DNA of 64,000 nt from Clostridia bacterium. Lineage in GTDB: Bacteria > Bacillota > Clostridia > TANB77 > CAG-508. The stretch's first letter is position 1; every line of letters starts with the position of its first letter. The notes beneath the pieces are model-generated. The model was not told where the DNA came from, ran no database searches, and saw only the letters and a program-made list of their open reading frames with translations. The stretch lies in NCBI GenBank assembly GCA_017429505.1, contig JAFROW010000010.1, positions 2,996 to 66,995 of the forward strand, read 5' to 3'. Positions 37,090 through 56,225 of the stretch are shown piece by piece. The translations under genes were made by a program, and so were the position numbers.

Positions 37090-38505
37090 CTAAGTTTTTG
37101 CAGTAAAATATCCTGGATTAGATTGACCTTCATCTATGTGAGCATAAGTTTTGTTTTTTTTGCTTGAACTGTATGTTGTTCCTGAACCTCCTACTAAATT
37201 TATACAGCCTTCAAACATATCTGTAGAGTTAATATCATTTCCATGTGAATCTATCCCTTTTTCAAATTTATCAACTACAAATCTATCTGATGCATATATT
37301 GTAGATAAATTATTGCATTGTGCAAACATATAATACATATATATTGCATTGCTTGTATCAAAATTACTTAAATCTAGGTTTGTTAAATTAGTACCCCTAA
37401 ACATGTGTTGCATATTTGTTACTTTTGATGTATCAAAACTGCTTACATCTAAACTTGTTAATCCTGTACAATAATAAAACATACCACTCATATTAGTTAC
37501 TTTAGATGTATTGAAATTACTTACATTAATACTTGTTAATTTTTTGCATCTGTTAAACATGCTAATCATATTAGTAGCATTCGATGTATTAAATCTACTT
37601 ACATCTAAAACCGTCAATGAATTACAATTATCAAACATATATGCCATTGTTGTTACTTTTGATGTATCAAAGCTCGTTATATTTAAGCTTATAAGACTAG
37701 TACATTCTTCAAACATAGAAGTCATATCTGTTACATTTGATGTATTAAAACTTTTTAAATTTAAACTTAATAATCCATAACAATGCATAAACATACTTGA
37801 CATTTTAGTTACTTTAGATGTATTAAAATTTCTAATGTCTAATCTTGTTAATTGACTACATCTGTTAAACATAGAAGTCATAATATTTACATTCTGCGTA
37901 TCAAAACTACTTACATCTAATTCCTTTAATTCACTACAATAAGAAAACATAGCACCCATGTTAGTTACATTTGATGTATCTATTTTACTTACATCTATAT
38001 TAGTACATTTTACACATTTATAAAACATGTACGAACTATTTGGATTTGATTCTGGCTCTTCATCTTTTGTATACCAATATATTGTTCCATTTGTGTTATC
38101 AAACCACATATATATTGGCATATTTGATTCAGGTGTAGATACAATATTTGAATCAATTTTATTTTCAGCAGATATTTCTGTCGCTCTTTTTATTTCTTTT
38201 ATATTTGTATCTTCTGTATTGTAAGTAGCACCTTCTGTTCCTGCAAGCTGTTTCATCTTCGCATTTACTTGTGTTCCTGTTTTAAATATTGCTCTTGGTA
38301 CAAAAGTTTCTTCATAAACTTGCTCTTCATTCCCCACGTCTTTTTCATAGCTTGACTTTGTTTTTTCAAATTGAGCATCTATACTTGCTTCTTTGTTTTT
38401 AAAACTCACTCCAACACTTGTTACAACTACTAAGAAAAATAGTGCTGATAAAAGTACAAATAGTGAAATTGAACCATTTTCATTTTTTACCATCTTTTGC
38501 ATCAT
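37090..38505 (-). CDS. BspA-like surface protein with ~10 tandem DUF285-type leucine-rich repeats (MF..C..L..LD.S.FDTSNVTNM)
   Basis: N-terminal TM anchor. Repeat unit FNTSNVT(N/D)M(S/T)SMF..C..L..L is repeated ~10 times. It lies between adk and map inside the spc operon. Confidence 0.7.
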   Translation of the reverse strand: MMQKMVKNENGSISLFVLLSALFFLVVVTSVGVSFKNKEASIDAQFEKTKSSYEKDVGNEEQVYEETFVPRAIFKTGTQVNAKMKQLAGTEGATYNTEDTNIKEIKRATEISAENKIDSNIVSTPESNMPIYMWFDNTNGTIYWYTKDEEPESNPNSSYMFYKCVKCTNIDVSKIDTSNVTNMGAMFSYCSELKELDVSSFDTQNVNIMTSMFNRCSQLTRLDIRNFNTSKVTKMSSMFMHCYGLLSLNLKSFNTSNVTDMTSMFEECTSLISLNITSFDTSKVTTMAYMFDNCNSLTVLDVSRFNTSNATNMISMFNRCKKLTSINVSNFNTSKVTNMSGMFYYCTGLTSLDVSSFDTSKVTNMQHMFRGTNLTNLDLSNFDTSNAIYMYYMFAQCNNLSTIYASDRFVVDKFEKGIDSHGNDINSTDMFEGCINLVGGSGTTYSSSKKNKTYAHIDEGQSNPGYFTAKT

Positions 38506-41206: not shown

Positions 41207-41461
41207 TTTTGGTTTGCACCTCCTTGTTATGAATTTTATATTATTTCTTTTTAAAAATCAATATATTTTTATAAATTTCTATTTTTTGTTATTCTTTGGA
41301 AATATATATTATTTTATAATACTGCGTAAGCGACCAAACGAGCTTAGCGAGTGCGAATTGGAGCAATCTTCATATAGTTTTTTTATAAAATGGAGATTGC
41401 GACACCAAAGTATTACAAAATAATATATATTTCCTATTAGCATAACTTACTATTCTAGAAA

Positions 41462-42337: not shown

Positions 42338-42390
42338 TTTATTTCTCCTTTCTTCATATTCGAATATTTATGATTTCTAATTTTAATCAA

Positions 42391-42497
42391 AAACGAGTAT
42401 TGCAAGGCGAAATTTTATGAAAAAGCGGAGCATACTTTGTGTATGTGAGCATTTTGAATAAAATTCCAACGAAGCAAGACGAAGTTTTTCATTAAAA
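42391..42497 (+). repeat. copy A of a ~100-nt structured intergenic repeat (forward orientation on the plus strand). Spacer between rplF and rplR
   Basis: CAAGGCGAAATTTTATGAAAAAGCGGAGCATACTTTGTGTATGTGAGCATTTTGAATAAAATTCCAACGAAGCAAGACGAAG. Central hairpin CATAC-TTTGT-GTATG. Confidence 0.7.
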
Positions 42498-43707: not shown

Positions 43708-43739
43708 TGAACAATTCCTCCTTACTTGTTTCCATTAAA

Positions 43740-43835
43740 TTCCAAATCCTGCTGTGTTAAAATTTTATTCAAAAATACTCATGTACCATATGTACACTCC
43801 GTTTTTTTCGTAAAATTTTGCCTTGCAGTATTTGT
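43740..43835 (-). repeat. copy B of the structured intergenic repeat (forward orientation on the minus strand). Spacer between rplE and rpsZ
   Basis: Minus strand reads CTGCAAGGCAAAATTTTACGAAAAAAACGGAGTGTACATATGGTACATGAG...TTGAATAAAATTTTAACACAGCAGGA. Hairpin TGTAC/GTACA shows compensatory pairing. Confidence 0.65.
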
Positions 43836-43896
43836 TTTTAATGAAAACATGTTATTCATTCACTTTTAGCTTCGCAAAACGAAGCTTTTCATTAAT

Positions 43897-44814: not shown

Positions 44815-44912
44815 TAGTTATATTGCTAGGCGAAATTTTGTGCAAACACCGGAGCGTACTTTGTGTACGTGAGGATGTTTAAGCAAAATTACAACGACGC
44901 AAGATGACTATT
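44815..44912 (+). repeat. copy C of the structured intergenic repeat (forward on the plus strand). Spacer between rplN and rplX
   Basis: CTAGGCGAAATTTTGTGCAAACACCGGAGCGTACTTTGTGTACGTGAGGATGTTTAAGCAAAATTACAACGACGCAAGATGAC. Hairpin CGTAC/GTACG. Confidence 0.7.
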
Positions 44913-44923
44913 ATTTGGAAAAC

Positions 44924-47295: not shown

Positions 47296-47396
47296 TTGGG
47301 ATTTGACTAGGCAAAATTTATTGGAAAGGTAAGGAAGCATACTTTGTGTATGTGACCGCGTTTTCAATGAATTTTAACGACGTCAAATTTCAATTA
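47296..47396 (+). repeat. copy D of the structured intergenic repeat (forward on the plus strand). Spacer between rpsS and rplV
   Basis: CTAGGCAAAATTTATTGGAAAGGTAAGGAAGCATACTTTGTGTATGTGACCGCGTTTTCAATGAATTTTAACGACGTCAAATTTC. Confidence 0.65.
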
Positions 47397-47685: not shown

Positions 47686-48513
47686 CTATTTCCTCCTTTT
47701 AACTATAAATTTATTTGATTGTTTCTTTTTATTTCTAGTCTTGTATCCTAGAGCTGGTTTACCCCAAGGTGTTAATGGTCCAGCGTGTCCGATTGGTGCT
47801 TTGCCTTCACCACCACCATGTGGGTGATCTACTGGGTTCATTGCAGAACCTCTAACTTCTGGTCTCCATCCCATATGTCTTTTTCTTCCTGCTTTTCCTA
47901 ATTTAACATTTGCATGTTCTGAGTTTCCTATAACTCCTATTGTAGCTCTACAATTAGCTAAAACAAGTCTCATTTCTCCTGATGGTAATCTTACATGTGC
48001 ATATTTTCCTTCTTTAGCCATTAATTGTGCGCTTTGTCCTGCTGCTTTAACAAGTTTTCCACCTTGTCCTGGATTTAATTCGATGTTGTGAATTAATGTA
48101 CCTACTGGAATACTGTTGATTTCCATACAATTTCCTGGTCTAATATCAACTGCTTTTCCTGATACTACTGTATCTCCATCTTTTAAATCTTGTGGTGCTA
48201 AAATGTATGATTTTTCACCATCTTCATATTGAATTAGTGCTATATTTGCACTTCTATTTGGATCATATTCGATTCCTACTACTGTGGCTTTCATATCGTC
48301 TTTTTTACGTTTGAAATCCATTATTCTATATTTTTGTCTGTTTCCTCCACCTTGATGACGTACTGTTATTCTGCCATAAGAGTTTCTTCCTGCTTTTTCT
48401 TTCTTTACAGCTAGTAAAGATTTTTCAGGAGTCTTTTTTGTTATTTCTGAATAATCTAATACTGTCATGTTTCTTCTTGAAGGTGTGTAGGCTTTAAATT
48501 TTTTTGTTGCCAT
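47686..48513 (-). CDS. rplB: 50S ribosomal protein L2
   Basis: 275 aa, conserved L2 motifs ([23 protein letters not shown]). Confidence 0.95.
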
Positions 48514-48537
48514 TTCTTTCTTTCCTTTCTCGAATTC

Positions 48538-48645
48538 GTGAAAAGCTTCGTCTTACTGCGTTAAAATTTTATTGAAAATGCTCACGTACTACGTGTACGC
48601 TCCGCTTTTTAATAAAATTTTGCCTTGTAATACTCGCTTTTGACA
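48538..48645 (-). repeat. copy E of the structured intergenic repeat (forward on the minus strand). Immediately 5' of the rplB RBS
   Basis: Minus strand reads AAAAGCGAGTATTACAAGGCAAAATTTTATTAAAAAGCGGAGCGTACACGTAGTACGTGAGCATTTTCAATAAAATTTTAACGCAGTAAGACGAAGC. Closest match to copy A. Confidence 0.7.
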
Positions 48646-48736
48646 AATTCTCTTATTTATTATTTTGGTGAGTTTTTTCCTGCCTCACTGCAGATAAAAT
48701 TTGTTTTCCTAGTTTTTTCTAGATATTTTTATATTA

Positions 48737-49273
48737 TTAATGTACTTGGTCTGATTGTTCTGGGGTGTCGACTTCTTTTTGTAAGGCTATCGCTATTTGT
48801 TTAATTGTTGACATATGACCGTCAGGTTTCACCTGTTTTAACCTTTTTGCCGATGTAATTATACTATCTAGTGTTTTCTCCCATACTTCAGTCCTCTCCT
48901 CTTGTGCTTTTTTATCCTGTTCTTCTTTATATTTTGTAAGCATATTACCAACTAGAGTTTTTAGTCTTTCTATACATCCCTTTATTTCTTCTGGAATATC
49001 CATTTCAAGCTTATCAGAAATTTTTTTTCTTTCCTCATTATATTTTTCGATAACTTCTTTTATCTCTTCTATACCATCAATTCCCAAATACTCATATTTT
49101 TTAATCGTAGTTAAAAAATTATGCATTGAATTATCTATCCATAATCTATAAAGTTCATCCCATGTATTATTTTCTGGCACAGCCTGCTGTAGAAGACTTA
49201 ATGCTATTTCCATATCCGACATAAAATTATGCGTATCATTTACATTACCTAATGAATTTGTAAATTCACTCAT
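48737..49273 (-). CDS. hypothetical acidic helical protein (178 aa) inserted between rplW and rplB and translationally coupled to rplW
   Basis: A TAGGAGG RBS overlaps the rplW stop codon. No TM segment and no recognisable motif. Breaks the otherwise universal rpsJ-rplC-rplD-rplW-rplB order. Confidence 0.55.
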   Translation of the reverse strand: MSEFTNSLGNVNDTHNFMSDMEIALSLLQQAVPENNTWDELYRLWIDNSMHNFLTTIKKYEYLGIDGIEEIKEVIEKYNEERKKISDKLEMDIPEEIKGCIERLKTLVGNMLTKYKEEQDKKAQEERTEVWEKTLDSIITSAKRLKQVKPDGHMSTIKQIAIALQKEVDTPEQSDQVH

Positions 49274-49285
49274 ATTATAATCCTC

Positions 49286-49633
49286 CTATGCTCCCATAAA
49301 CTCTTCGATAGAATCCTTAAGCTTCTTAGAACCCTTAACTGCTTTTCCACCTTTTCCTAGATATGTAGTATCTCCTGGATTAGTATCAATTGTAACAATT
49401 GCTTTTTTCCAATCTGATGTCTTTCCTTGGTGGTATCCTACTCTTTTACTTTTTCCTTTTACACTTATTGTATTTACTTTTAATACTTTAACTTCAAAAA
49501 GTTTTTCAACTGCATTTGCAATCTCAATCTTTGTAGCATTTTTGTTTACCTCGAAAGTGTATTTACCTTGTTGTAACATATCGTTACTTTTTTCTGTAAC
49601 AATTGGTGCTATTATAATATCTTCTGGTTTCAT
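49286..49633 (-). CDS. rplW: 50S ribosomal protein L23 (C-terminal Lys/Gly-rich extension)
   Basis: [40 protein letters not shown]. Confidence 0.9.
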
Positions 49634-51294: not shown

Positions 51295-51530
51295 ACTAAT
51301 TTCCCTCCTTCTTATTAATTTATTTTGAATATAGCTTGGCAAGTAGTAACGCTACCTGGTGTTTTGAAATCTACCAGTATTAAATCCCAAATTTGTATGA
51401 TAAAATTGGGATAAGTGCTTTTCAACTTACCGCCTGGTCTAAGCCATGACATACTCCACTGAAGTTCCCTCCACCCCTTTTGCATAGTGGGTGTAGCCAC
51501 ATTCAGCTTCAACGCTAAAATTCATACTAT
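51295..51530 (-). promoter_or_regulatory. structured 5' leader of the S10 operon (several hairpins; not protein-coding)
   Basis: Minus strand has ~10-bp stem AUCCCAAUUUU...AAAUUUGGGAU and shorter stems CUGG/CCAG, CCAC/GUGG and GUAG/CUAC. The tracked 65-aa ORF here looks spurious. Confidence 0.4.
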
Positions 51531-51666: not shown

Positions 51667-53760
51667 TTATATATCAATTTTGTATGTGTATGTTTTTCCA
51701 TAATCTGTATATGATACAATTACAGAACCATTACATATTGCAATAGATTCAGGTTCAAAGTATTTTAAATTACTTGGCTTTTTTGGTAATGTAATTTCAT
51801 TAATAACTTTAGTCTTTAAGTTTAATCTCCATAAGTTACTATCATTTATTCCTGAAAGTATATATATGCATCCCTTATAGTAGCATGTATCTTGTATGTA
51901 ATCCATTAATTTACAGTCAAATACCTCCATAATATCTTTTTGGCTTATTATTGCATTTTTATTTGATATATTAGGTATCTTAAATTTAAAAAATCTAGTT
52001 TTCTTTTCACTTAATCTTAAATTATAAACATACATATAGTTATTGTCAGTATCTATTACAAAATTTCCAAATGTTCTTTTTGTGTCTTTTACATTTTTCC
52101 AAATACTTGTGTTAATAAATCCAATTTTAATAGTCTGTTTTAGTTCACACTTAAATTTTTCATCTGCTCCTACAATTAGTCTATATACATAGCATACTCC
52201 GTCTTGTACTCCTTTATCATTATAAGCATTTATATATAACAATGGATATTTATCTGTTTTTTTATAAAATTGTTTACTAAAAGATACTGCATTGCAATGT
52301 GGAAAATTATTCTTACCATTTGGTAATGTAAATGTATTAACAAACTTATTTGTTTTTAAATTATAAACATTACATTTCCCTCCAGAAGAAAACATAAAAA
52401 GTCTATTATTATATATTTCGCAACCTTGTTGAGCCTTTATAGATTTTTGTAATGTAATTTTAGTTATTTTTCTAGGTATTTTGTCAATTACTTTAATTTT
52501 GCAAGTTGCAATTTTTCCATATTTAGAAGTAGCTCTAATTGTTGTTTCTCCATTTTCTTTCGCTGTAACAACACCATTTGAGTTCACCGAAGCTATGCTA
52601 GGTTTAAGTGATTCCCATCTTATTTCTTTTGAAGTTGTGTTTGTCGGATTAAAACTTACAACAAATTTTTGTGTACTTCCTTTATATAATGTCATATTTG
52701 TTGTATTTAAGCTTATACTTTTGGCTGGAATATTCACTTTTATAATGCATGTTGCTTTCTTCCCATTTGATGTAGACGCTGTTATAGTTATTTTTCCTGG
52801 TTTTATTCCTTTTACAACACCTTTTTTATTTACTTTAGCAATATTGTTGTTTGATGAAACCCATGTAATTGTTTTATTTGTTGTGTTTGTAGGTTGTATA
52901 GTAGCATTTAACTGTAAACTTGTTCCCACAGGTACTGTACAATCTGTTTGTTTTAATGTTATTCCTGTTGATTTTACTTCTGATTGTTTCTTTAAAATAT
53001 TTTTTGTATAAATTTCTCGTTCTGTTGTTGCCATTTCTATTTTTTCATTTTCATCATTTGAATAAGTCGATTCTATTAATGTTGTATTATCACTTTTTAA
53101 AATTTCCATTGTTGGGTTTTCAACTATTTCATTCTTTTCTGTAACTTCAATTTGACATGTTTTATATAAACCATTTATTGTTTTTGCTGTTATTATTGTT
53201 ATTCCTGCTTTTAATCCTGTTACATTTCCTATGCCATCAACTGTTGCTACCTTTGAGTCTGATGAACTCCATGTTACTACTTTATTAGTAGCATTTGTTG
53301 GAGAAATTGTTGATATTAATTTTGTACTTTTTCCTTCTTCTAATTTTATGACTGTTCTATCTAATGTAATTTGTGTTACTTCTATACTTTTCCATTTTTT
53401 TTCAATGTATGTTTTCCAATCTGAATGTTTTTGTTCGATTGTTGGAATTGTTGAAGCAGCTATATATTCCATTTCTCTTAATGTGTCAATAGAATCTATT
53501 ATTCCATCTTCATTTATATCTCCAAATTTAAATTTTTCACCTGTTAAAATCCAGTCTGAGTGTTTTTGATTTATTGAAGGAATAGTTGATGCTGCTATAT
53601 GCTCTAGTATTTTTAAAGTATCTCTTGAATCTATTACTTCATCTCCATTTATATCTCCTATTTTTAAGTTATTTTCTACTGCATTTTCTGTTTTGGGTAT
53701 AATACAAAAAAACATAGCTATTATTAAGATTGGGATTATTTTTTTACATAAAATTTTCAT
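51667..53760 (-). CDS. secreted protein with an N-terminal dockerin-type repeat pair, three Big_2-like Ig domains and a ~280-aa C-terminal domain of unknown function (start at MKILCKK; GGAGGAAGG RBS)
   Basis: Signal peptide. GDINGDEVIDSRDTLKILEHIAAS / GDINEDGIIDSIDTLREMEYIAAS is a duplicated Ca-binding dockerin-like segment. Three ~80-aa repeats with the Big_2 pattern (VTWSSSD..VATVD..G.V.G...G.A.I.A). Confidence 0.6.
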   Translation of the reverse strand: MKILCKKIIPILIIAMFFCIIPKTENAVENNLKIGDINGDEVIDSRDTLKILEHIAASTIPSINQKHSDWILTGEKFKFGDINEDGIIDSIDTLREMEYIAASTIPTIEQKHSDWKTYIEKKWKSIEVTQITLDRTVIKLEEGKSTKLISTISPTNATNKVVTWSSSDSKVATVDGIGNVTGLKAGITIITAKTINGLYKTCQIEVTEKNEIVENPTMEILKSDNTTLIESTYSNDENEKIEMATTEREIYTKNILKKQSEVKSTGITLKQTDCTVPVGTSLQLNATIQPTNTTNKTITWVSSNNNIAKVNKKGVVKGIKPGKITITASTSNGKKATCIIKVNIPAKSISLNTTNMTLYKGSTQKFVVSFNPTNTTSKEIRWESLKPSIASVNSNGVVTAKENGETTIRATSKYGKIATCKIKVIDKIPRKITKITLQKSIKAQQGCEIYNNRLFMFSSGGKCNVYNLKTNKFVNTFTLPNGKNNFPHCNAVSFSKQFYKKTDKYPLLYINAYNDKGVQDGVCYVYRLIVGADEKFKCELKQTIKIGFINTSIWKNVKDTKRTFGNFVIDTDNNYMYVYNLRLSEKKTRFFKFKIPNISNKNAIISQKDIMEVFDCKLMDYIQDTCYYKGCIYILSGINDSNLWRLNLKTKVINEITLPKKPSNLKYFEPESIAICNGSVIVSYTDYGKTYTYKIDI

Positions 53761-54028
53761 AATCCTTCCTCCTTCCATAATCTTCTGATATACTTATATT
53801 ATACCATTTTTAGTTAAGAAAGTCAATTTTTTATGTTTACTATGTTGCTATTATTTAAATAGTGTTTGGTGTATTTTTATATAGAAAAAATACCACTTAT
53901 CTTAATAGATACGTAGTATTTTTTATTACATAAAAAATCGCAAAATATTTCCAGATCAACAAGATTAAGTTTCCATGATTTGCACGATTGTAAAGCAATC
54001 TACACATATGTCAAAGTCACTTTTCTTA

Positions 54029-55501
54029 TTATATATTTAATTTTTTATATCGTACAAAGAACCATACTGATAATGAAATAAGTGCTACTATTCCTAAGAA
54101 AATTAACAATGTTTCTGCATCTCCTGAATAAGGTAAACTTTTACTTTTATTTGATGCTTTTTTAGTTATATCTTTTATACTTGATACTTTTTTACTTTCT
54201 TTTGTAGCTTCATCTATAATAGTAGTTCCTGATGTATCTCCAATTGTTGTTCCATTTTCTGATGTACCGCCATTTGATATAGTGCTATTTGAAGTATCTC
54301 CATTTGATATTTTACCTTCTGTTTCAGTTCCATCTAATATACTTCCGCCTGATGTACTTCCTCCTGTTGAACTTTCTCCTGTTGAACTCCCTCCTGATGT
54401 GCTTCCTCCTGTTGAACTCCCTCCAGATGTGCCTCCACTTGATGTTTCTCCTCCTGTTGAAGTTCCGCCTGATGTGCTTCCTCCTGTTGAACTTCCGCCT
54501 GATGTGCTTCCTCCTGATGTACCTCCACTAGTACTTTGAGATGACTCTACTTTTATGTTTAATGTGGTATCGATTAATGTGATTTTGCTATTATCAGCAG
54601 TAGTTGCCTTTATATTAGTAATTTTTGTTTGATATGTACCATTTTCCAATCCAGTTTTAGGTGTATAAATAATTTTTGCAATAGTTTCATCGCTTTTCCA
54701 AGCTTCAGAATTATTTGAAGAAATTGTAATATATCCTTCTCTGTTTACCAATGACCACTTATCTTCATTATAATTCCTAACTTTACAATCAAATCTACTT
54801 GAGTCATAATTTCCTATATAAAACTCAACCATTTTTAATCCATTACCTGCATTTACATTTGAAACCTTTACATTATATGTAATATCTTCTGTTGGTTTAA
54901 CACTAGTTTTGTCTGGTATAAAAGAAAAATTACATGAATAACTATTACCTGTACTTCCTCCTGATGGACTTTCTCCTGATGTACCTCCGCTAGTGCTTTG
55001 TGAAGATTCAACTTTTATATTTAGTGTTAAATCATTTAATGTCATCAAGCTATCATCAGCTGCAGTAGATTTTATATTAGTAATTTTAGTTTGATATGTA
55101 CCATTTGTCAATCCGGTTCTAGGTGTAAAAACAATTTTTGCAAGTATTTCATCTGTTTTCCACGCTTCAGAATTGTTCGATGTTATTGTAATATATCCTT
55201 CTCTGTTTACTAATGACCATTTGTCTTCATTATAATTTCTAATTTTGCAATCAAATTTGCTTGAATCATAATTTCCTATATAAAATTCAACCATCTTTAA
55301 TCCATTACCTGCATTTATATTAGATACTTTTAAATTATATGTAATATCTTCTCCTGGTTTCACACTAGTTTTATCAGAAATAGCAGTTATATTACATGTA
55401 TAATTATTCGCTGCATACACATATGGTTTTGTTATAAATGTAATCACAACTATAGCCACAAAAAACACCTTAAAAAATTTTACTTTCATATTTACTGACA
55501 T
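54029..55501 (-). CDS. cell-surface scaffold-like protein: signal peptide, two ~85%-identical cohesin-like modules, Gly/Ser/Thr linkers and a C-terminal sorting-signal-like tail (SLPYSGD + TM + RYKK)
   Basis: Module motifs GLKMVEFYIGNYDSSRFDC, REGYITISSNN, ETIAKIIYTPKTGLENGTY and ITLIDTTLNIKV are collinear with type-I cohesin. The start is ambiguous (55489, 55501 or 55585). Confidence 0.55.
   Translation of the reverse strand: MSVNMKVKFFKVFFVAIVVITFITKPYVYAANNYTCNITAISDKTSVKPGEDITYNLKVSNINAGNGLKMVEFYIGNYDSSKFDCKIRNYNEDKWSLVNREGYITITSNNSEAWKTDEILAKIVFTPRTGLTNGTYQTKITNIKSTAADDSLMTLNDLTLNIKVESSQSTSGGTSGESPSGGSTGNSYSCNFSFIPDKTSVKPTEDITYNVKVSNVNAGNGLKMVEFYIGNYDSSRFDCKVRNYNEDKWSLVNREGYITISSNNSEAWKSDETIAKIIYTPKTGLENGTYQTKITNIKATTADNSKITLIDTTLNIKVESSQSTSGGTSGGSTSGGSSTGGSTSGGTSTGGETSSGGTSGGSSTGGSTSGGSSTGESSTGGSTSGGSILDGTETEGKISNGDTSNSTISNGGTSENGTTIGDTSGTTIIDEATKESKKVSSIKDITKKASNKSKSLPYSGDAETLLIFLGIVALISLSVWFFVRYKKLNI
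54336..54532. repeat. tandem ~30-nt nucleotide repeats encoding the (SGGS/TSTGG)n linker of the cohesin scaffold gene
   Basis: Repeated cctcctgttgaactYccNcctgatgtgcttc units. They create the spurious overlapping ORFs 54282..54539 (+), 54289..54531 (+) and 54334..54528 (-). Confidence 0.8.
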
Positions 55502-55577
55502 TCCTTTCAAGAAATAAAATTTGATTAAAAATAATTGTTTTTCAAACTTATATCCTATGCTTTTATTCTTTTTTGTA

Positions 55578-56225
55578 TTAATCAACTTTTATATTGATAT
55601 TATTATCAGCAATGCTAAAAATTTGGCTATCTCCAGAAGTAAATTTAATATTATTAAGTGAAGTTTTGTAGCTACCAGCAGATACATTTGATTTAGCAGT
55701 AAAAACAATTTTTGCAATTACTTGATCTTCAGTACTTACATCATCACTTTTTACCATTGTTAGATATCCTTCTAAAAAGCCTATTTTCGACCAATTTTCT
55801 TCTTCATTACTAATAACCTTACAATCAAATAAATTAGAATCATAATCTATATATGTTTCAAATGATCTAATACCTTGTCCTGCATTGATATTTGAAATTT
55901 TCACTTCGTATTCTATAGATTCTCCTGGTTTTATGCTTTTTTTATCTCCATTTATTGAAATATTGCAAGAATAATTGTTATTCTCTACGCTTTTTTTAGT
56001 TTCTGTTGTACTTCTTGTATTATTAGTATCACCATTATAATAGTGATCTACCAAAGTATTATATTGACTTTTAGATTTAAAATATGCTGACCAAGAAATA
56101 ATATTTAAAACTATTGCAAATATTAAAAGTGCAATTACTAATCCATAAATCCATATATTTTTCTTTTGAATTTTAATAACTCCTTCTTCTGGTGCTCTTC
56201 TATCTCCTTTTCTTCTGTCTCCCAT
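55578..56225 (-). CDS. type-II membrane-anchored protein with a single diverged cohesin-like module
   Basis: N-terminal cytoplasmic GDRRKGDRR, TM IWIYGLVIALLIFAIVL, then IEYEVKISNINAGQGIRSFETYIDYDSNLFDC ... DQVIAKIVFTAKSNVSAGSY. GGAGGA RBS. Confidence 0.5.
   Translation of the reverse strand: MGDRRKGDRRAPEEGVIKIQKKNIWIYGLVIALLIFAIVLNIISWSAYFKSKSQYNTLVDHYYNGDTNNTRSTTETKKSVENNNYSCNISINGDKKSIKPGESIEYEVKISNINAGQGIRSFETYIDYDSNLFDCKVISNEEENWSKIGFLEGYLTMVKSDDVSTEDQVIAKIVFTAKSNVSAGSYKTSLNNIKFTSGDSQIFSIADNNINIKVD

What the first reader, a model, noticed from the sequence alone, without database searches (positions are those of the whole stretch)
48737..49273. Foreign ORF translationally coupled into the S10 operon between rplW and rplB
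The order rpsJ-rplC-rplD-rplW-rplB-rpsS is among the most conserved gene orders in bacteria. Here a 178-aa acidic, helical protein with no recognisable motif sits between rplW and rplB. Its strong RBS (TAGGAGG) overlaps the rplW stop codon, and repeat copy E follows directly before the rplB RBS. It should therefore be made at ribosomal-protein levels. Candidates include a ribosome-associated factor, an anti-phage or toxin-related hitchhiker, or cargo delivered with the repeat element.
Basis: seen in the sequence. Interest (0 to 1): 0.6.

Follow-up and report, generated by a model that had tools for sequence, protein, structure and literature searches.

The report
Variable orphan-gene slot inside S10 operon
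A real but fast-evolving gene of unknown function sits between two ribosomal protein genes, at a spot where related gut and rumen bacteria carry other unrelated small genes or nothing, so one of the most conserved bacterial operons holds a changeable gene slot here.

Summary
A 178-aa acidic, helical ORF (48737-49273, minus strand) lies between rplW and rplB. Its GGAGG overlaps the rplW stop codon, and a palindromic repeat lies before the rplB RBS. It is not an assembly artefact: 11 independent contigs carry it identically.

The gene is not foreign. Its base composition is native, it has no phage, plasmid or defence-family match, and its few relatives among billions of proteins all sit in this same slot where context is known. 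It was not delivered by the repeat, because relatives L002 and L004 have the gene without the repeat.

New findings:
- The stretch from the rplW stop to a conserved hairpin-plus-pseudoknot RNA upstream of rplB is a variable slot.
- Of 77 related loci, 31 are empty, 20 are expanded without an ORF, 10 hold only short ORFs, 11 hold other unrelated ORFs and 5 hold this family.
- Flanks are about 95% identical while slot contents cannot be aligned.
- The protein evolves nearly neutrally (dN/dS 0.5-1.2) and is poorly codon-adapted (CAI 0.50). It still has a confident five-helix model and an N-terminal peptide conserved at protein level.

Best reading: a dispensable operon-resident orphan whose frame is kept open for translational coupling. 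The RNA motif is itself a candidate new uL2 leader.

The parts
49286..49633 (-). rplW (uL23), 115 aa. Its last codons (..ATGGGAGCATAG) supply SD-like GGGAG/GGAGG sequence for whatever ORF follows.
   Evidence: (Pfam Ribosomal_L23 in the syntenic L001)
49282..49286 (-). Shine-Dalgarno GGAGG of ORF178. It overlaps the rplW stop codon TAG (49286-49288) and lies 8 nt upstream of the ATG.
   Evidence: Conserved as TAGGAGG in L001, L002, L003 and L007, and as TAGGAGA in L004.
48737..49273 (-). ORF178 (NCBI MBR0427960.1, hypothetical protein IJK18_07175). Acidic five-helix-bundle orphan protein.
49235..49273 (-). Codons 1-13, the conserved N-terminal peptide MSEFTxSLGNxND. It is the only part of the ORF that stays alignable at nucleotide level between allele types, and it is conserved at protein level.
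   Evidence: Synonymous variation TTT/TTC, TCA/AGT/TCG, GGT/GGG/GGA, AAT/AAC and GAT/GAC with the amino acids kept.
48724..49285 (-). The variable slot, from the rplW stop codon to hairpin 1 of the RNA motif. Nucleotide identity to relatives with about 95% identical flanks is lost exactly here.
48708..48723 (-). Hairpin 1 of the conserved RNA motif (UCUAG-AAAAAA-CUAGG). It starts 12-13 nt after the ORF178 stop codon.
   Evidence: pairs 7-19 and 8-18 covary: UA/GC and AU/GC
48668..48693 (-). H-type pseudoknot of the RNA motif: CUGC-A-GUGAG-GCAG-GAAAAAA-CUCAC.
   Evidence: all 5 pairs of stem 2 show compensatory changes. No Rfam family.
48531..48650 (-). Absent at this site in L002 and L004.
   Evidence: (hairpin -47.9 kcal/mol, z -5.2)
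48519..48528 (-). rplB Shine-Dalgarno region (AAAGGAAAG).
47686..48513 (-). rplB (uL2), 275 aa.
47307..47383 (+). Degenerate copy of the same repeat family, in the 184-nt rpsS-rplV spacer.
   Evidence: E 2.4e-6
44820..44913 (+). Repeat copy in the rplN-rplX spacer.
43730..43850 (-). Repeat copy in the rplE-rpsN spacer.
42382..42495 (+). Repeat copy in the rplF-rplR spacer.

Best explanation
ORF178 is a genuine protein-coding gene, co-transcribed with the S10 operon.

**How it is made.**
- Ribosomes that terminate at the rplW stop codon re-initiate on it. Its SD overlaps that stop codon.
- It encodes a soluble, acidic, five-helix-bundle protein with a short conserved N-terminal peptide.

**What family it belongs to.**
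- It belongs to a tiny orphan family that is known only from this one genomic position.
- That position runs from the rplW stop codon to a conserved hairpin-plus-pseudoknot RNA upstream of rplB.
- The carriers are a clade of uncultured Clostridia. Sample labels suggest rumen and gut sources, but I did not verify this.

**How the position behaves.**
- It acts as a variable slot.
- The end of rplW supplies a ready SD and a stream of terminating ribosomes.
- DNA that lands or expands there is therefore expressed at once.
- ORFs in the slot arise, grow (some by internal tandem duplication), diverge almost neutrally and decay.
- They are also swapped between lineages by recombination in the highly conserved ribosomal protein flanks.

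**What I think selection acts on (inferred).**
- The main target is an open, benign, translated frame that carries ribosomes across the insert and releases them about 2-20 nt before the rplB leader RNA.
- In relatives with an empty slot, rplW itself releases ribosomes at a similar distance.
- This would preserve coupling and avoid polarity on rplB and the essential genes behind it.
- The protein itself is a dispensable passenger. Any function beyond that probably runs through the conserved N-terminal peptide and is not part of the core ribosome.
For: **Shown: the gene is coupled and sits in the operon.**
- The SD overlaps the rplW stop codon, and this is conserved across alleles.
- There is no excess of promoter or terminator signals.

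**Shown: the family is confined to the slot.**
- Searches found only 6 clusters. Five have readable context, always rplW-ORF-rplB; the sixth contig is too short to tell.
- A second slot family (L008/L012) has only 8 clusters; the two whose context I looked up lie in the same slot.

**Shown: the slot is variable.**
- Census of 77 loci: 31 empty, 20 expanded without an ORF, 10 with short ORFs only, 11 with other ORFs of at least 100 aa, 5 with this family.
- The families show no homology by BLASTP, HMM or hhalign.
- None has a Pfam domain.

**Shown: the boundaries are sharp.**
- Window versus L008, L009 and L010 is 95-96% identical up to the rplW stop codon.
- Identity is 88-93% again from hairpin 1 onward.
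- Nothing aligns in between.

**Shown: constraint on the protein is weak.**
- dN/dS is 0.52 for window-L001 and 1.17 for L004-L007, against 0.05-0.06 for rplB in the same pairs.
- Pooled, N:S is 44.5:12.5, which does not differ from neutrality (p = 0.39).
- CAI is 0.50, below every ribosomal protein gene and below the background.

**Shown: slot ORFs are born and die.**
- The L013 and L017 ORFs carry internal tandem duplications (z 13.6 and 26).
- L016, L018 and L020 carry truncated remnants of the L014 ORFs.

**Shown: the frame is under selection.**
- Five allele types at 26-33% identity all keep 175-186 codons.

**Shown: ORF ends lie close to the RNA motif.**
- The distance from stop codon to hairpin is 2-22 nt in 11 of 20 ORF-bearing loci.
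- In empty loci the distance from the rplW stop codon to the hairpin is 13-17 nt in the commonest types.

**Shown: it is stable within the species.**
- All 11 contigs with the identical L23 carry the 178-aa ORF; the five I compared are identical in nucleotide sequence.
Against: **Evidence that the protein matters as a protein.**
- The N-terminal peptide is conserved at protein level.
- A GIEEI motif and scattered core positions are conserved.
- A 7-sequence alignment lifts the AlphaFold2 model from pLDDT 46 to 83.5. This argues for a conserved fold, and so for a protein function rather than a mere translated spacer.

**Age of the family.**
- It spans lineages whose flanks are only 83-87% identical (L002). 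It is therefore old, unless it was transferred.

**Translation up to the motif is not obligatory.**
- L012, L016 and L018-L020 leave 75-240 nt untranslated.
- 20 loci have expanded spacers with no ORF at all.

**Ambiguity of dN/dS.**
- A value near 1 in two small comparisons can also come from mixed positive and purifying selection.

**Unknown source of the DNA.**
- The empty state leaves only about 15 nt between the rplW stop codon and the hairpin. The origin of the roughly 550 nt of inserted DNA is not known.

**No expression data.**
- No transcript, ribosome-profiling or proteome data were available.
Confidence: 0.45

Rival explanations
1. **Conflict locus.** The slot proteins are arms-race factors made constitutively from the S10 operon. 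They could be decoys or immunity proteins against ribosome-targeting toxins or phage takeover proteins, or abortive-infection sensors. Deeply divergent alleles and unrelated cassettes would be kept by frequency-dependent selection. They would be exchanged between strains and species with the ribosomal protein genes as homology arms.
For: - Flanks are about 95% identical while slot contents cannot be aligned, and the boundaries are sharp.
- The grouping of rplW alleles differs from the grouping of slot alleles.
- rplW shows locally raised dS (0.47-0.53, against 0.05-0.2 in its neighbours), which indicates recombination around the slot.
- dN/dS reaches 1.17.
- Divergence in the ORF (dN 0.75) exceeds the dS of secY (0.25) and of the neighbouring dockerin gene (0.51) for the same genome pair.
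- A short conserved N-terminal module is followed by a hypervariable body.
- All slot proteins share an acidic, hydrophilic character.
Against: - No match to any PADLOC defence model and none to phage proteins.
- No partner toxin or effector gene lies nearby.
- No variation within the species: all five compared contigs of the 11 are identical.
- Many relatives have an empty slot or decayed ORFs.
- Low codon adaptation argues against selection for high output.
- The acidic composition can follow from the purine-rich sense strand that the ribosomal protein genes share.
Confidence: 0.2
2. **Lineage-specific ribosome-associated factor.** ORF178 would be an acidic escort or chaperone for the very basic uL2 or uL23, or an assembly or regulatory factor. 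It would sit in the operon so that it is made together with its client.
For: - It lies between rplW and rplB and is translationally coupled.
- It is an acidic (pI 4.9) helical bundle with a disordered conserved N-terminal peptide.
- It is fixed in the species.
- General knowledge, not tested here: prp lies between rplU and rpmA in Firmicutes, and eukaryotes have dedicated acidic chaperones for ribosomal proteins.
Against: - uL2 is 98% and uL4 100% identical between genomes whose slot proteins are 26-32% identical or unrelated. A client-specific partner should co-vary with its client, not turn over.
- 31 of 77 relatives lack any slot ORF.
- dN/dS is about 1 and CAI is low.
- No sequence or fold match to any ribosome-associated protein.
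Confidence: 0.12
3. **The first reader's reading.** ORF178 would be a recently acquired foreign gene, phage-, toxin- or defence-related, brought in as cargo of the adjacent repeat element.
For: - The repeat lies directly downstream.
- The repeat is recently mobile: L001 and L004 have a copy between rpsJ and rplC that the window lacks.
- Codon adaptation is poor.
Against: - L002 and L004 carry the gene without the repeat. L008-L010 carry the repeat with other ORFs. Four further copies sit in spacers with no cargo.
- The conserved RNA motif lies between the ORF and the repeat, so the two are separate insertions.
- Base composition is native.
- No homologues outside this slot, and none in phages, plasmids or viral contigs.
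Confidence: 0.03
4. **Not a gene.** The ORF would be a chance or decaying open frame in an expanded spacer, never made as a stable protein.
For: - dN/dS does not differ from 1 in close pairs.
- CAI is low.
- No known domain.
- Neighbouring lineages show decaying ORFs in the same slot.
Against: - The chance probability of a 178-codon open frame at this composition is about 4e-8 (my calculation).
- Five allele types at 26-33% identity keep their length, their start context and their SD.
- Synonymous-only variation in the N-terminal motif shows selection on the protein.
- The alignment-based AlphaFold2 model is confident.
Confidence: 0.05

Closest known systems
Non-ribosomal genes resident in ribosomal protein operons, e.g. 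prp (ysxB) between rplU and rpmA in Firmicutes, or secY, adk, map and infA in the spc/alpha cluster (my own knowledge, not tested here)
   Same: A non-ribosomal ORF is embedded between ribosomal protein genes. It is co-transcribed and tightly spaced or coupled.
   Different: Those genes are conserved, have known functions and are under strong purifying selection across phyla. ORF178 is an orphan confined to a few lineages. It evolves at dN/dS of about 0.5-1.2 and is replaced by unrelated ORFs, or by nothing, in close relatives.
Variable hotspots or islets flanked by conserved core genes, such as defence or accessory-gene hotspots (general knowledge)
   Same: Unrelated cargo sits at one fixed position between highly conserved flanks, with sharp boundaries and signs of recombination in the flanks.
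   Different: Here the hotspot lies inside an essential polycistronic operon. It holds only one or two small promoterless ORFs, with no integrase, tRNA or att site. It matches no known defence domain. Both cargo families I searched turn up only in this slot where context was checked.
Orphan or de novo genes and overprinted ORFs in bacteria (e.g. PMC4683798 for an E. coli case)
   Same: No homologues outside a narrow lineage. The protein is short, poorly codon-adapted and weakly constrained. Some slot ORFs grew by internal duplication.
   Different: No non-coding ancestor sequence could be identified. The empty state has only about 15 nt at the site, so the DNA must have been inserted or expanded first. 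ORF178 already has a confident predicted fold.
L2 ribosomal-leader candidate of Alphaproteobacteria (Eckert and Weinberg 2020, PMC7247131, Table 1)
   Same: A structured RNA lies directly upstream of rplB, inside the S10 operon. This applies to the hairpin-plus-pseudoknot motif at 48668-48723.
   Different: The lineage (Clostridia) and the structure differ. No Rfam 15 model matches, even at E up to 10. Binding by uL2 is untested.
Small palindromic intergenic repeats or MITEs, such as REP, BOX/RUP or Correia elements (general knowledge)
   Same: About 115 nt long, an imperfect palindrome that folds into a long hairpin, present in several copies and polymorphic between close relatives.
   Different: All five copies in this 64-kb window lie in spacers of the S10-spc ribosomal protein operons. 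Target-site duplications and a cognate transposase were not identified.

Membership tests
PhaP phasin (TIGR02131, phaP_Bmeg) | Score at or above the curated cut-off (109.3 bits), shared by the whole family | tested here: not met
   The window protein scores 23.1 bits. Only 2 of 7 family members hit the model at all. I read this as a compositional match of helical, acidic sequence.
Known anti-phage defence or toxin-antitoxin proteins (PADLOC-DB) | Significant match to a defence-system model, and partner genes nearby | tested here: not met
   The best PADLOC E-value is 0.003 at 15 bits, to unrelated methyltransferase and restriction-enzyme models. The neighbours are rplW and rplB only.
Phage- or plasmid-borne (foreign) gene | Homologues on mobile elements | tested here: not met
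   No tblastn match in 50,697 phage records or 72,556 plasmids. None in IMG/VR. No fold match in BFVD.
Phage- or plasmid-borne (foreign) gene | Atypical base composition | tested here: not met
   Sense-strand composition (A .443, C .114, G .196, T .248) equals that of the ribosomal protein genes (.439.120.196.245).
Cargo of the adjacent repeat (cassette plus recombination site, integron-like or MITE-borne) | The ORF and the repeat occur together as one unit | tested here: not met
   L002 and L004 have the ORF without the repeat. L008-L010 have the repeat with other ORFs. The conserved RNA motif separates the ORF from the repeat.
Conserved ribosomal accessory protein of the lineage | Present throughout the clade that shares the ribosomal proteins | tested here: not met
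   5 of 77 informative loci carry the family, 31 are empty and 11 carry other ORFs.
Conserved ribosomal accessory protein of the lineage | Purifying selection comparable to its neighbours | tested here: not met
   dN/dS is 0.52 and 1.17, against 0.05-0.15 for the flanking genes.
Conserved ribosomal accessory protein of the lineage | Physical association with ribosomes | not testable with these tools
   This needs sedimentation or pull-down experiments.
Orphan or de novo gene | No homologues outside a narrow lineage | tested here: met
   5 hits in 1.84 billion representatives and 6 clusters in 5.8 billion proteins. All five with readable context lie in the same slot.
Orphan or de novo gene | An identifiable non-coding ancestral sequence at the syntenic site | tested here: inconclusive
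   Empty relatives have only about 13-17 nt between the rplW stop codon and hairpin 1. The source of the roughly 550 nt was not found. Other slot ORFs do show growth by tandem duplication. ORF178 shows only a marginal sign of it (z 2.8).
Ribosomal protein leader RNA (for the motif at 48668-48723) | Conserved position directly upstream of a ribosomal protein gene | tested here: met
   The motif lies upstream of rplB in every locus where my pattern search found it, with or without slot ORFs. The shortest spacers keep only hairpin 1.
Ribosomal protein leader RNA (for the motif at 48668-48723) | Secondary structure supported by covariation | tested here: met
   Across 25 distinct sequences, 98.6% of cells are paired, against 29-51% when the partners are slid. 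8 of 14 pairs show compensatory changes, including all 5 pairs of pseudoknot stem 2.
Ribosomal protein leader RNA (for the motif at 48668-48723) | Binding by the regulated ribosomal protein, and autoregulation | not testable with these tools
   This needs binding and reporter assays.
Ribosomal protein leader RNA (for the motif at 48668-48723) | Match to a described Rfam leader family | tested here: not met
   No hit near the gathering score in Rfam 15. PMC7247131 lists an L2 leader only for Alphaproteobacteria.
MITE or REP-like repeat (for 48531-48650 and its copies) | Short palindromic element, several copies, present or absent between close relatives | tested here: met
   5 copies in the window and 4 in L004, at partly different spacers. 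The hairpin folds at -47.9 kcal/mol, z -5.2.
MITE or REP-like repeat (for 48531-48650 and its copies) | Target-site duplication and a cognate transposase | not tested
   The filled (window) and empty (L004) sites were only compared by eye. The AT-rich junctions gave no clear duplication.

The most novel reading that the evidence does not exclude
The rplW-rplB junction of this Clostridia clade would be a conflict-driven hypervariable locus hidden inside the most conserved operon.
- The slot proteins, ORF178 among them, would be constitutively produced decoys or immunity factors against toxins or phage proteins that target the translation apparatus.
- They would be kept as deeply divergent alleles and cassettes by frequency-dependent selection.
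- They would move between species by homologous recombination, with the near-invariant ribosomal protein genes as universal homology arms.

A milder variant, also not excluded and more probable (about 0.35), is that the slot is a natural 'gene nursery'. A built-in SD and a stream of terminating ribosomes would let newly inserted DNA be translated at once, so that new proteins are born there.
Probability: 0.15. Interest if true: 0.85.

Novelty: new variant of a known kind. Interest (0 to 1): 0.6.

Why it matters
**Why the S10 operon finding is unusual.**
- The gene order rpsJ-rplC-rplD-rplW-rplB-rpsS is a textbook example of extreme conservation.
- Here one junction of that operon tolerates, and may favour, rapid turnover of small lineage-specific ORFs, while the flanking genes stay about 95% identical.

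**What it could be used for, if confirmed.**
- It would be a natural system for studying how new proteins arise and persist at a site with guaranteed transcription and translation.
- It would allow a test of how far translational coupling constrains what can be inserted into an essential operon.
- It is a caution for marker-gene and synteny-based binning and annotation of uncultured Clostridia.

**The by-product.**
- A covariation-supported hairpin-plus-pseudoknot lies upstream of rplB and is absent from Rfam.
- It is a candidate new uL2 autoregulatory leader, and it can be tested directly.

Tried and rejected
**Family assignment: nothing significant.**
- Pfam, NCBIfam, PHROGs and PADLOC were run on ORF178 and on all 7 family members.
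- The PhaP_Bmeg hit (23 bits against a cut-off of 109) is limited to the window allele and its 92% twin. I rejected it as compositional.

**Solved structures.**
- A profile search of PDB sequences returned only designed helical bundles.

**Structure prediction and fold search.**
- The single-sequence AlphaFold2 model was poor (pLDDT 46).
- The 7-sequence alignment gave pLDDT 83.5.
- Foldseek against the PDB (best E 0.9) and against BFVD (best E 0.17) gave only generic helical matches.

**Common ancestry of the slot families.**
- hhalign of the ORF178 profile against L008/L012, L013, L009 and L010 gave probabilities below 1%.
- blastn between slots found only shared modules within groups.
- Only L013 shows an N-terminus similar to MSEFTxSLGN.

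**Internal duplication in ORF178.** Marginal (z 2.8). I make no claim from it.

**The repeat as carrier of the ORF.** Rejected; see the rival explanations.

**Known RNA families for the spacer.**
- Only sub-threshold noise was found.
- This includes a 15.7-bit PreQ1-I hit on hairpin 1 of L015, against a gathering score of 39. I rejected it.

**Literature.**
- I found no report of a variable ORF slot in the S10 operon.
- The library is incomplete, so this is weak evidence of absence.

**A budgeting choice that cost information.**
- I spent the single genome-contig scan on the ORF family. It returned only the MAG contig I already had as L002.
- I therefore could not retrieve named reference genomes of relatives.
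- The taxon remains 'Clostridia bacterium'.
Full report
**1. The observation**

The window carries the S10-spc ribosomal protein cluster on the minus strand. Between rplW (49286-49633) and rplB (47686-48513) lies an ATG ORF of 178 codons at 48737-49273.

The sequence reads ...GGAGCA-TAG-GAGGATTATAAT-ATG. The rplW stop codon therefore overlaps a GGAGG that lies 8 nt upstream of the start.

Downstream of the ORF, in order, come:
- a conserved stretch of about 70 nt;
- a palindromic repeat of about 120 nt (48531-48650);
- the rplB RBS.

The protein is acidic (pI 4.92) and hydrophilic. It is predicted to be all-helical. It matches no Pfam, NCBIfam, PHROG or PADLOC family.

At the measured sense-strand composition, about 9% of random codons are stop codons. 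By my own calculation, a 178-codon open frame then has a probability of roughly 4e-8.

The ORF is not an assembly artefact.
- The exact protein is NCBI MBR0427960.1, from a MAG annotated 'Clostridia bacterium'.
- All 11 contigs from several samples that encode the identical L23 carry a 178-aa ORF in the same place; the five I compared are identical in nucleotide sequence.

**2. Relatives, and where they are**

A word-indexed search of 5.8 billion proteins found one relative, at 92% identity. An exhaustive phmmer search over 1.84 billion cluster representatives found five, and a profile search added a sixth. They are 152-186 aa long and 24-36% identical to the query.

Every one of them with readable context lies between L23 and L2:
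- L001;
- L002, which is the same contig as L006, from an 'uncultured Clostridia bacterium' MAG;
- L003;
- L004;
- L007.

Nothing turned up in phage genomes, plasmids or IMG/VR. The gene is therefore not a recent foreign arrival from a known pool. It is an orphan family tied to this one position.

**3. The surprise: conserved flanks, unalignable middle**

Between the window and L004 the ribosomal proteins are nearly the same: L4 100%, L2 98%, S19 97% and L23 90% identical. The inserted protein is 27% identical.

At nucleotide level, identity is about 95% through rplW and the first 30 nt or so of the ORF. It then vanishes and resumes exactly at the ORF stop codon.

I used the window's L23 to pull 80 related loci from metagenomes. 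The distance between rplW and rplB ranges from 59 to 1305 nt.

The census of 77 informative loci is:

| Slot content | Loci |
|---|---|
| Empty (RNA motif only, at most 135 nt) | 31 |
| Expanded spacer, no ORF | 20 |
| Only ORFs of 40-99 aa | 10 |
| Other ORFs of 100-259 aa | 11 |
| ORF178 family | 5 |

The other ORFs form several families. None shows detectable homology to ORF178 or to each other by BLASTP, HMM search or hhalign. None has a Pfam domain.

L008, L009 and L010 have flanks 95-96% identical to the window up to the rplW stop codon, and 88-93% identical from the RNA motif onward. Yet they carry unrelated ORFs of 198, 259 and 224 aa in between.

A second slot family (L008/L012) behaves like ORF178. 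It has only 8 clusters in 5.8 billion proteins, and the two whose context I looked up lie in the same slot.

The slot is therefore sharply bounded. In the window it runs from the rplW stop codon to hairpin 1 of a conserved RNA, that is 48724-49285.

**4. The RNA motif that bounds the slot**

Wherever my pattern search found it, with or without slot ORFs, the spacer before rplB contains two elements:
- a small hairpin, AUC-NNG...CNN-GGAAAAUAAA;
- in most lineages, an H-type pseudoknot, CUG[CU]-x-S2-[GA]CAGG-AAAAAA-S2'.

The evidence for the structure comes from 25 distinct sequences:
- 98.6% of pair cells form standard pairs, against 29-51% when the partners are slid by 1-3 columns.
- 8 of 14 pairs show compensatory changes.
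- All five pairs of pseudoknot stem 2 covary.

In the window the hairpin is at 48708-48723 and the pseudoknot at 48668-48693.

No Rfam 15 family matches, even at E up to 10. The published survey of ribosomal leader candidates lists an L2 leader upstream of rplB only for Alphaproteobacteria (PMC7247131). This is a candidate new uL2 leader. I cannot test whether uL2 binds it.

**5. The repeat**

The repeat of about 115 nt is an imperfect palindrome that folds into a long hairpin (-47.9 kcal/mol, z -5.2).

All five copies in the 64-kb window sit in S10-spc spacers: rplF/rplR, rplE/rpsN, rplN/rplX, rpsS/rplV (degenerate) and RNA motif/rplB.

Its positions differ between close relatives.
- L001 and L004 have a copy between rpsJ and rplC that the window lacks.
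- L002 and L004 lack the copy before rplB.

The repeat is therefore mobile and independent of the ORF. This removes the 'cargo of the repeat' idea.

Because the repeat is a hairpin, it can extrude and still leave the RNA motif close to the rplB SD. That last point is my inference.

**6. How the ORF evolves**

| Comparison | ORF178 dN/dS | rplB dN/dS (same pair) |
|---|---|---|
| Window vs L001 | 0.52 (16 N, 7 S) | 0.05 |
| L004 vs L007 | 1.17 (28.5 N, 5.5 S; one 27-nt in-frame indel) | 0.06 |

Pooled, the N:S ratio does not differ from neutral expectation (p = 0.39).

Codon adaptation is poor. CAI is 0.50, against 0.66-0.86 for the 20 ribosomal protein genes and a median of 0.70 for other long ORFs. 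Base composition, in contrast, is the same as in the ribosomal protein genes.

Some constraint is still clear.
- Five allele types at 26-33% identity keep 175-186 codons, the same SD and the same start context.
- The first 13 codons (MSEFTxSLGNxND) vary at synonymous sites while the amino acids stay fixed. This includes a TCA/AGT serine switch.
- A 7-sequence alignment raises the AlphaFold2 model from pLDDT 46 to 83.5, pTM 0.68. The model has five helices and disordered termini.

The fold has no informative match in the PDB or in BFVD.

Other slot ORFs show how such genes change.
- The L013 and L017 ORFs contain clear internal tandem duplications (z 13.6 and 26).
- L016, L018 and L020 carry truncated remnants of the L014 ORFs.

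All slot proteins are acidic and hydrophilic. This may simply reflect the purine-rich sense strand.

**7. Recombination**

Two observations show that the region is a mosaic.
- rplW groups the window with L003, L008 and L009 (95-96% identical protein) rather than with L001 (90%). L001 is the locus that shares the window's ORF allele.
- The dS of rplW (0.47-0.53) is several-fold higher than that of rplD (0.05-0.06) or rplB (0.20) in the same genome pairs.

Slot contents are therefore uncoupled from their flanks.

Two explanations remain open:
- old cassettes that are maintained and exchanged;
- very fast divergence, helped by recombination.

For window versus L004, the dN of the ORF (0.75) exceeds the dS of secY (0.25) and of the neighbouring dockerin gene (0.51). 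But ribosomal protein genes are poor neutral clocks, and only one non-ribosomal neighbour could be compared.

**8. Mechanism**

Shown:
- co-location within the operon;
- an SD that overlaps the rplW stop codon;
- no excess of promoter or terminator signals;
- an ORF stop codon 12-13 nt before hairpin 1, close to the 13-17 nt between the rplW stop codon and the hairpin in the commonest empty loci.

Inferred:
- Ribosomes that finish rplW re-initiate on ORF178.
- They translate across the insert and are released next to the rplB leader.
- The open frame therefore preserves coupling and avoids polarity on rplB and the genes behind it.
- The end of rplW itself contains GGGAG. Many slot ORFs start only 2-3 nt after the stop codon. 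Any DNA that lands there would be translated at once.

I therefore read ORF178 as a dispensable, operon-resident orphan. It is real and foldable but weakly constrained, and it sits in a slot where such ORFs are born, swapped and lost.

The conserved N-terminal peptide and the conserved fold are the main facts that this reading does not explain well. They keep two rivals alive: a conflict-related role and a ribosome-related role.

**9. Comparison with what is known, and novelty**

Non-ribosomal genes inside ribosomal protein operons are known, for example prp, secY and adk. Those are conserved genes with defined functions.

Variable hotspots between core genes are also known. They are not described inside the S10 operon, and they do not usually consist of single promoterless orphan ORFs.

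I found no report of such a slot. The paper library is incomplete, so this is weak evidence.

I class the finding as a new variant of a known kind. It has two by-products of independent interest: the RNA motif, and the repeats restricted to the operon.

**10. Limits**

- No expression data were available.
- The selection tests rest on small allele samples.
- The taxon is resolved only to 'Clostridia bacterium'.
- Sample labels suggest ruminant and human gut sources, but I could not verify this.

Noticed in passing
window 48668-48723 (minus strand); also every related locus, e.g. L015:1985-2052, L028:1253-1321: A conserved hairpin plus H-type pseudoknot lies directly upstream of rplB. In 25 distinct sequences 98.6% of pair cells are paired, and 8 of 14 pairs show compensatory changes. 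No Rfam 15 match. Candidate new uL2 leader of a Clostridia clade.
   Followed up: yes
window 42382-42495, 43730-43850, 44820-44913, 47307-47383, 48531-48650: A palindromic MITE-like repeat of about 115 nt. All five window copies sit in spacers of the S10-spc ribosomal protein operons and none in the other ~54 kb. Copy positions differ in L001 and L004, for example an extra copy between rpsJ and rplC.
   Followed up: partly
window 49286-49633 (rplW), against L001 and L004: rplW has dS of 0.47-0.53, while the adjacent rplD and rplB have 0.05-0.20 in the same genome pairs. Its allele grouping also differs from that of the slot ORF. This indicates fine-scale recombination inside the S10 operon.
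   Followed up: partly
L004:15974-16363: A relative carries a second extra ORF inside the spc operon, between rpsH and rplF. It is 129 aa, hydrophobic and membrane-like, with no significant Pfam hit. It is absent from the window, where that spacer is 34 nt.
   Followed up: partly
L013:1018-1524 and L017:1266-1571: Slot ORFs of other relatives contain clear internal tandem duplications of about 40-70 residues (z 13.6 and 26). ORFs in this slot therefore grow by duplication.
   Followed up: partly
window 41207-41461: There is no rpmD (L30) gene between rpsE and rplO. The 255-nt spacer holds only a 44-aa ORF with no Pfam hit. L004 also lacks L30 at this place.
   Followed up: partly
window 51427-51520 (minus strand): A sub-threshold match to the S10-Clostridia ribosomal leader (RF03136; 27.2 bits against a gathering score of 35.1) lies upstream of rpsJ.
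   Followed up: no
window 37090-38505 (minus strand), repeats at 37411-38075: A 471-aa ORF with DUF285 and leucine-rich-repeat matches, built from repeats with a 78-nt period.
   Followed up: partly
window 51667-53778 (minus strand) and 54269-55946: A dockerin/Big_2 surface protein lies directly upstream of the S10 operon. It is 73% identical to its L004 counterpart. Further upstream a large ORF holds repeats with a 15-nt period (54269-54546) and 462-nt domain repeats.
   Followed up: no
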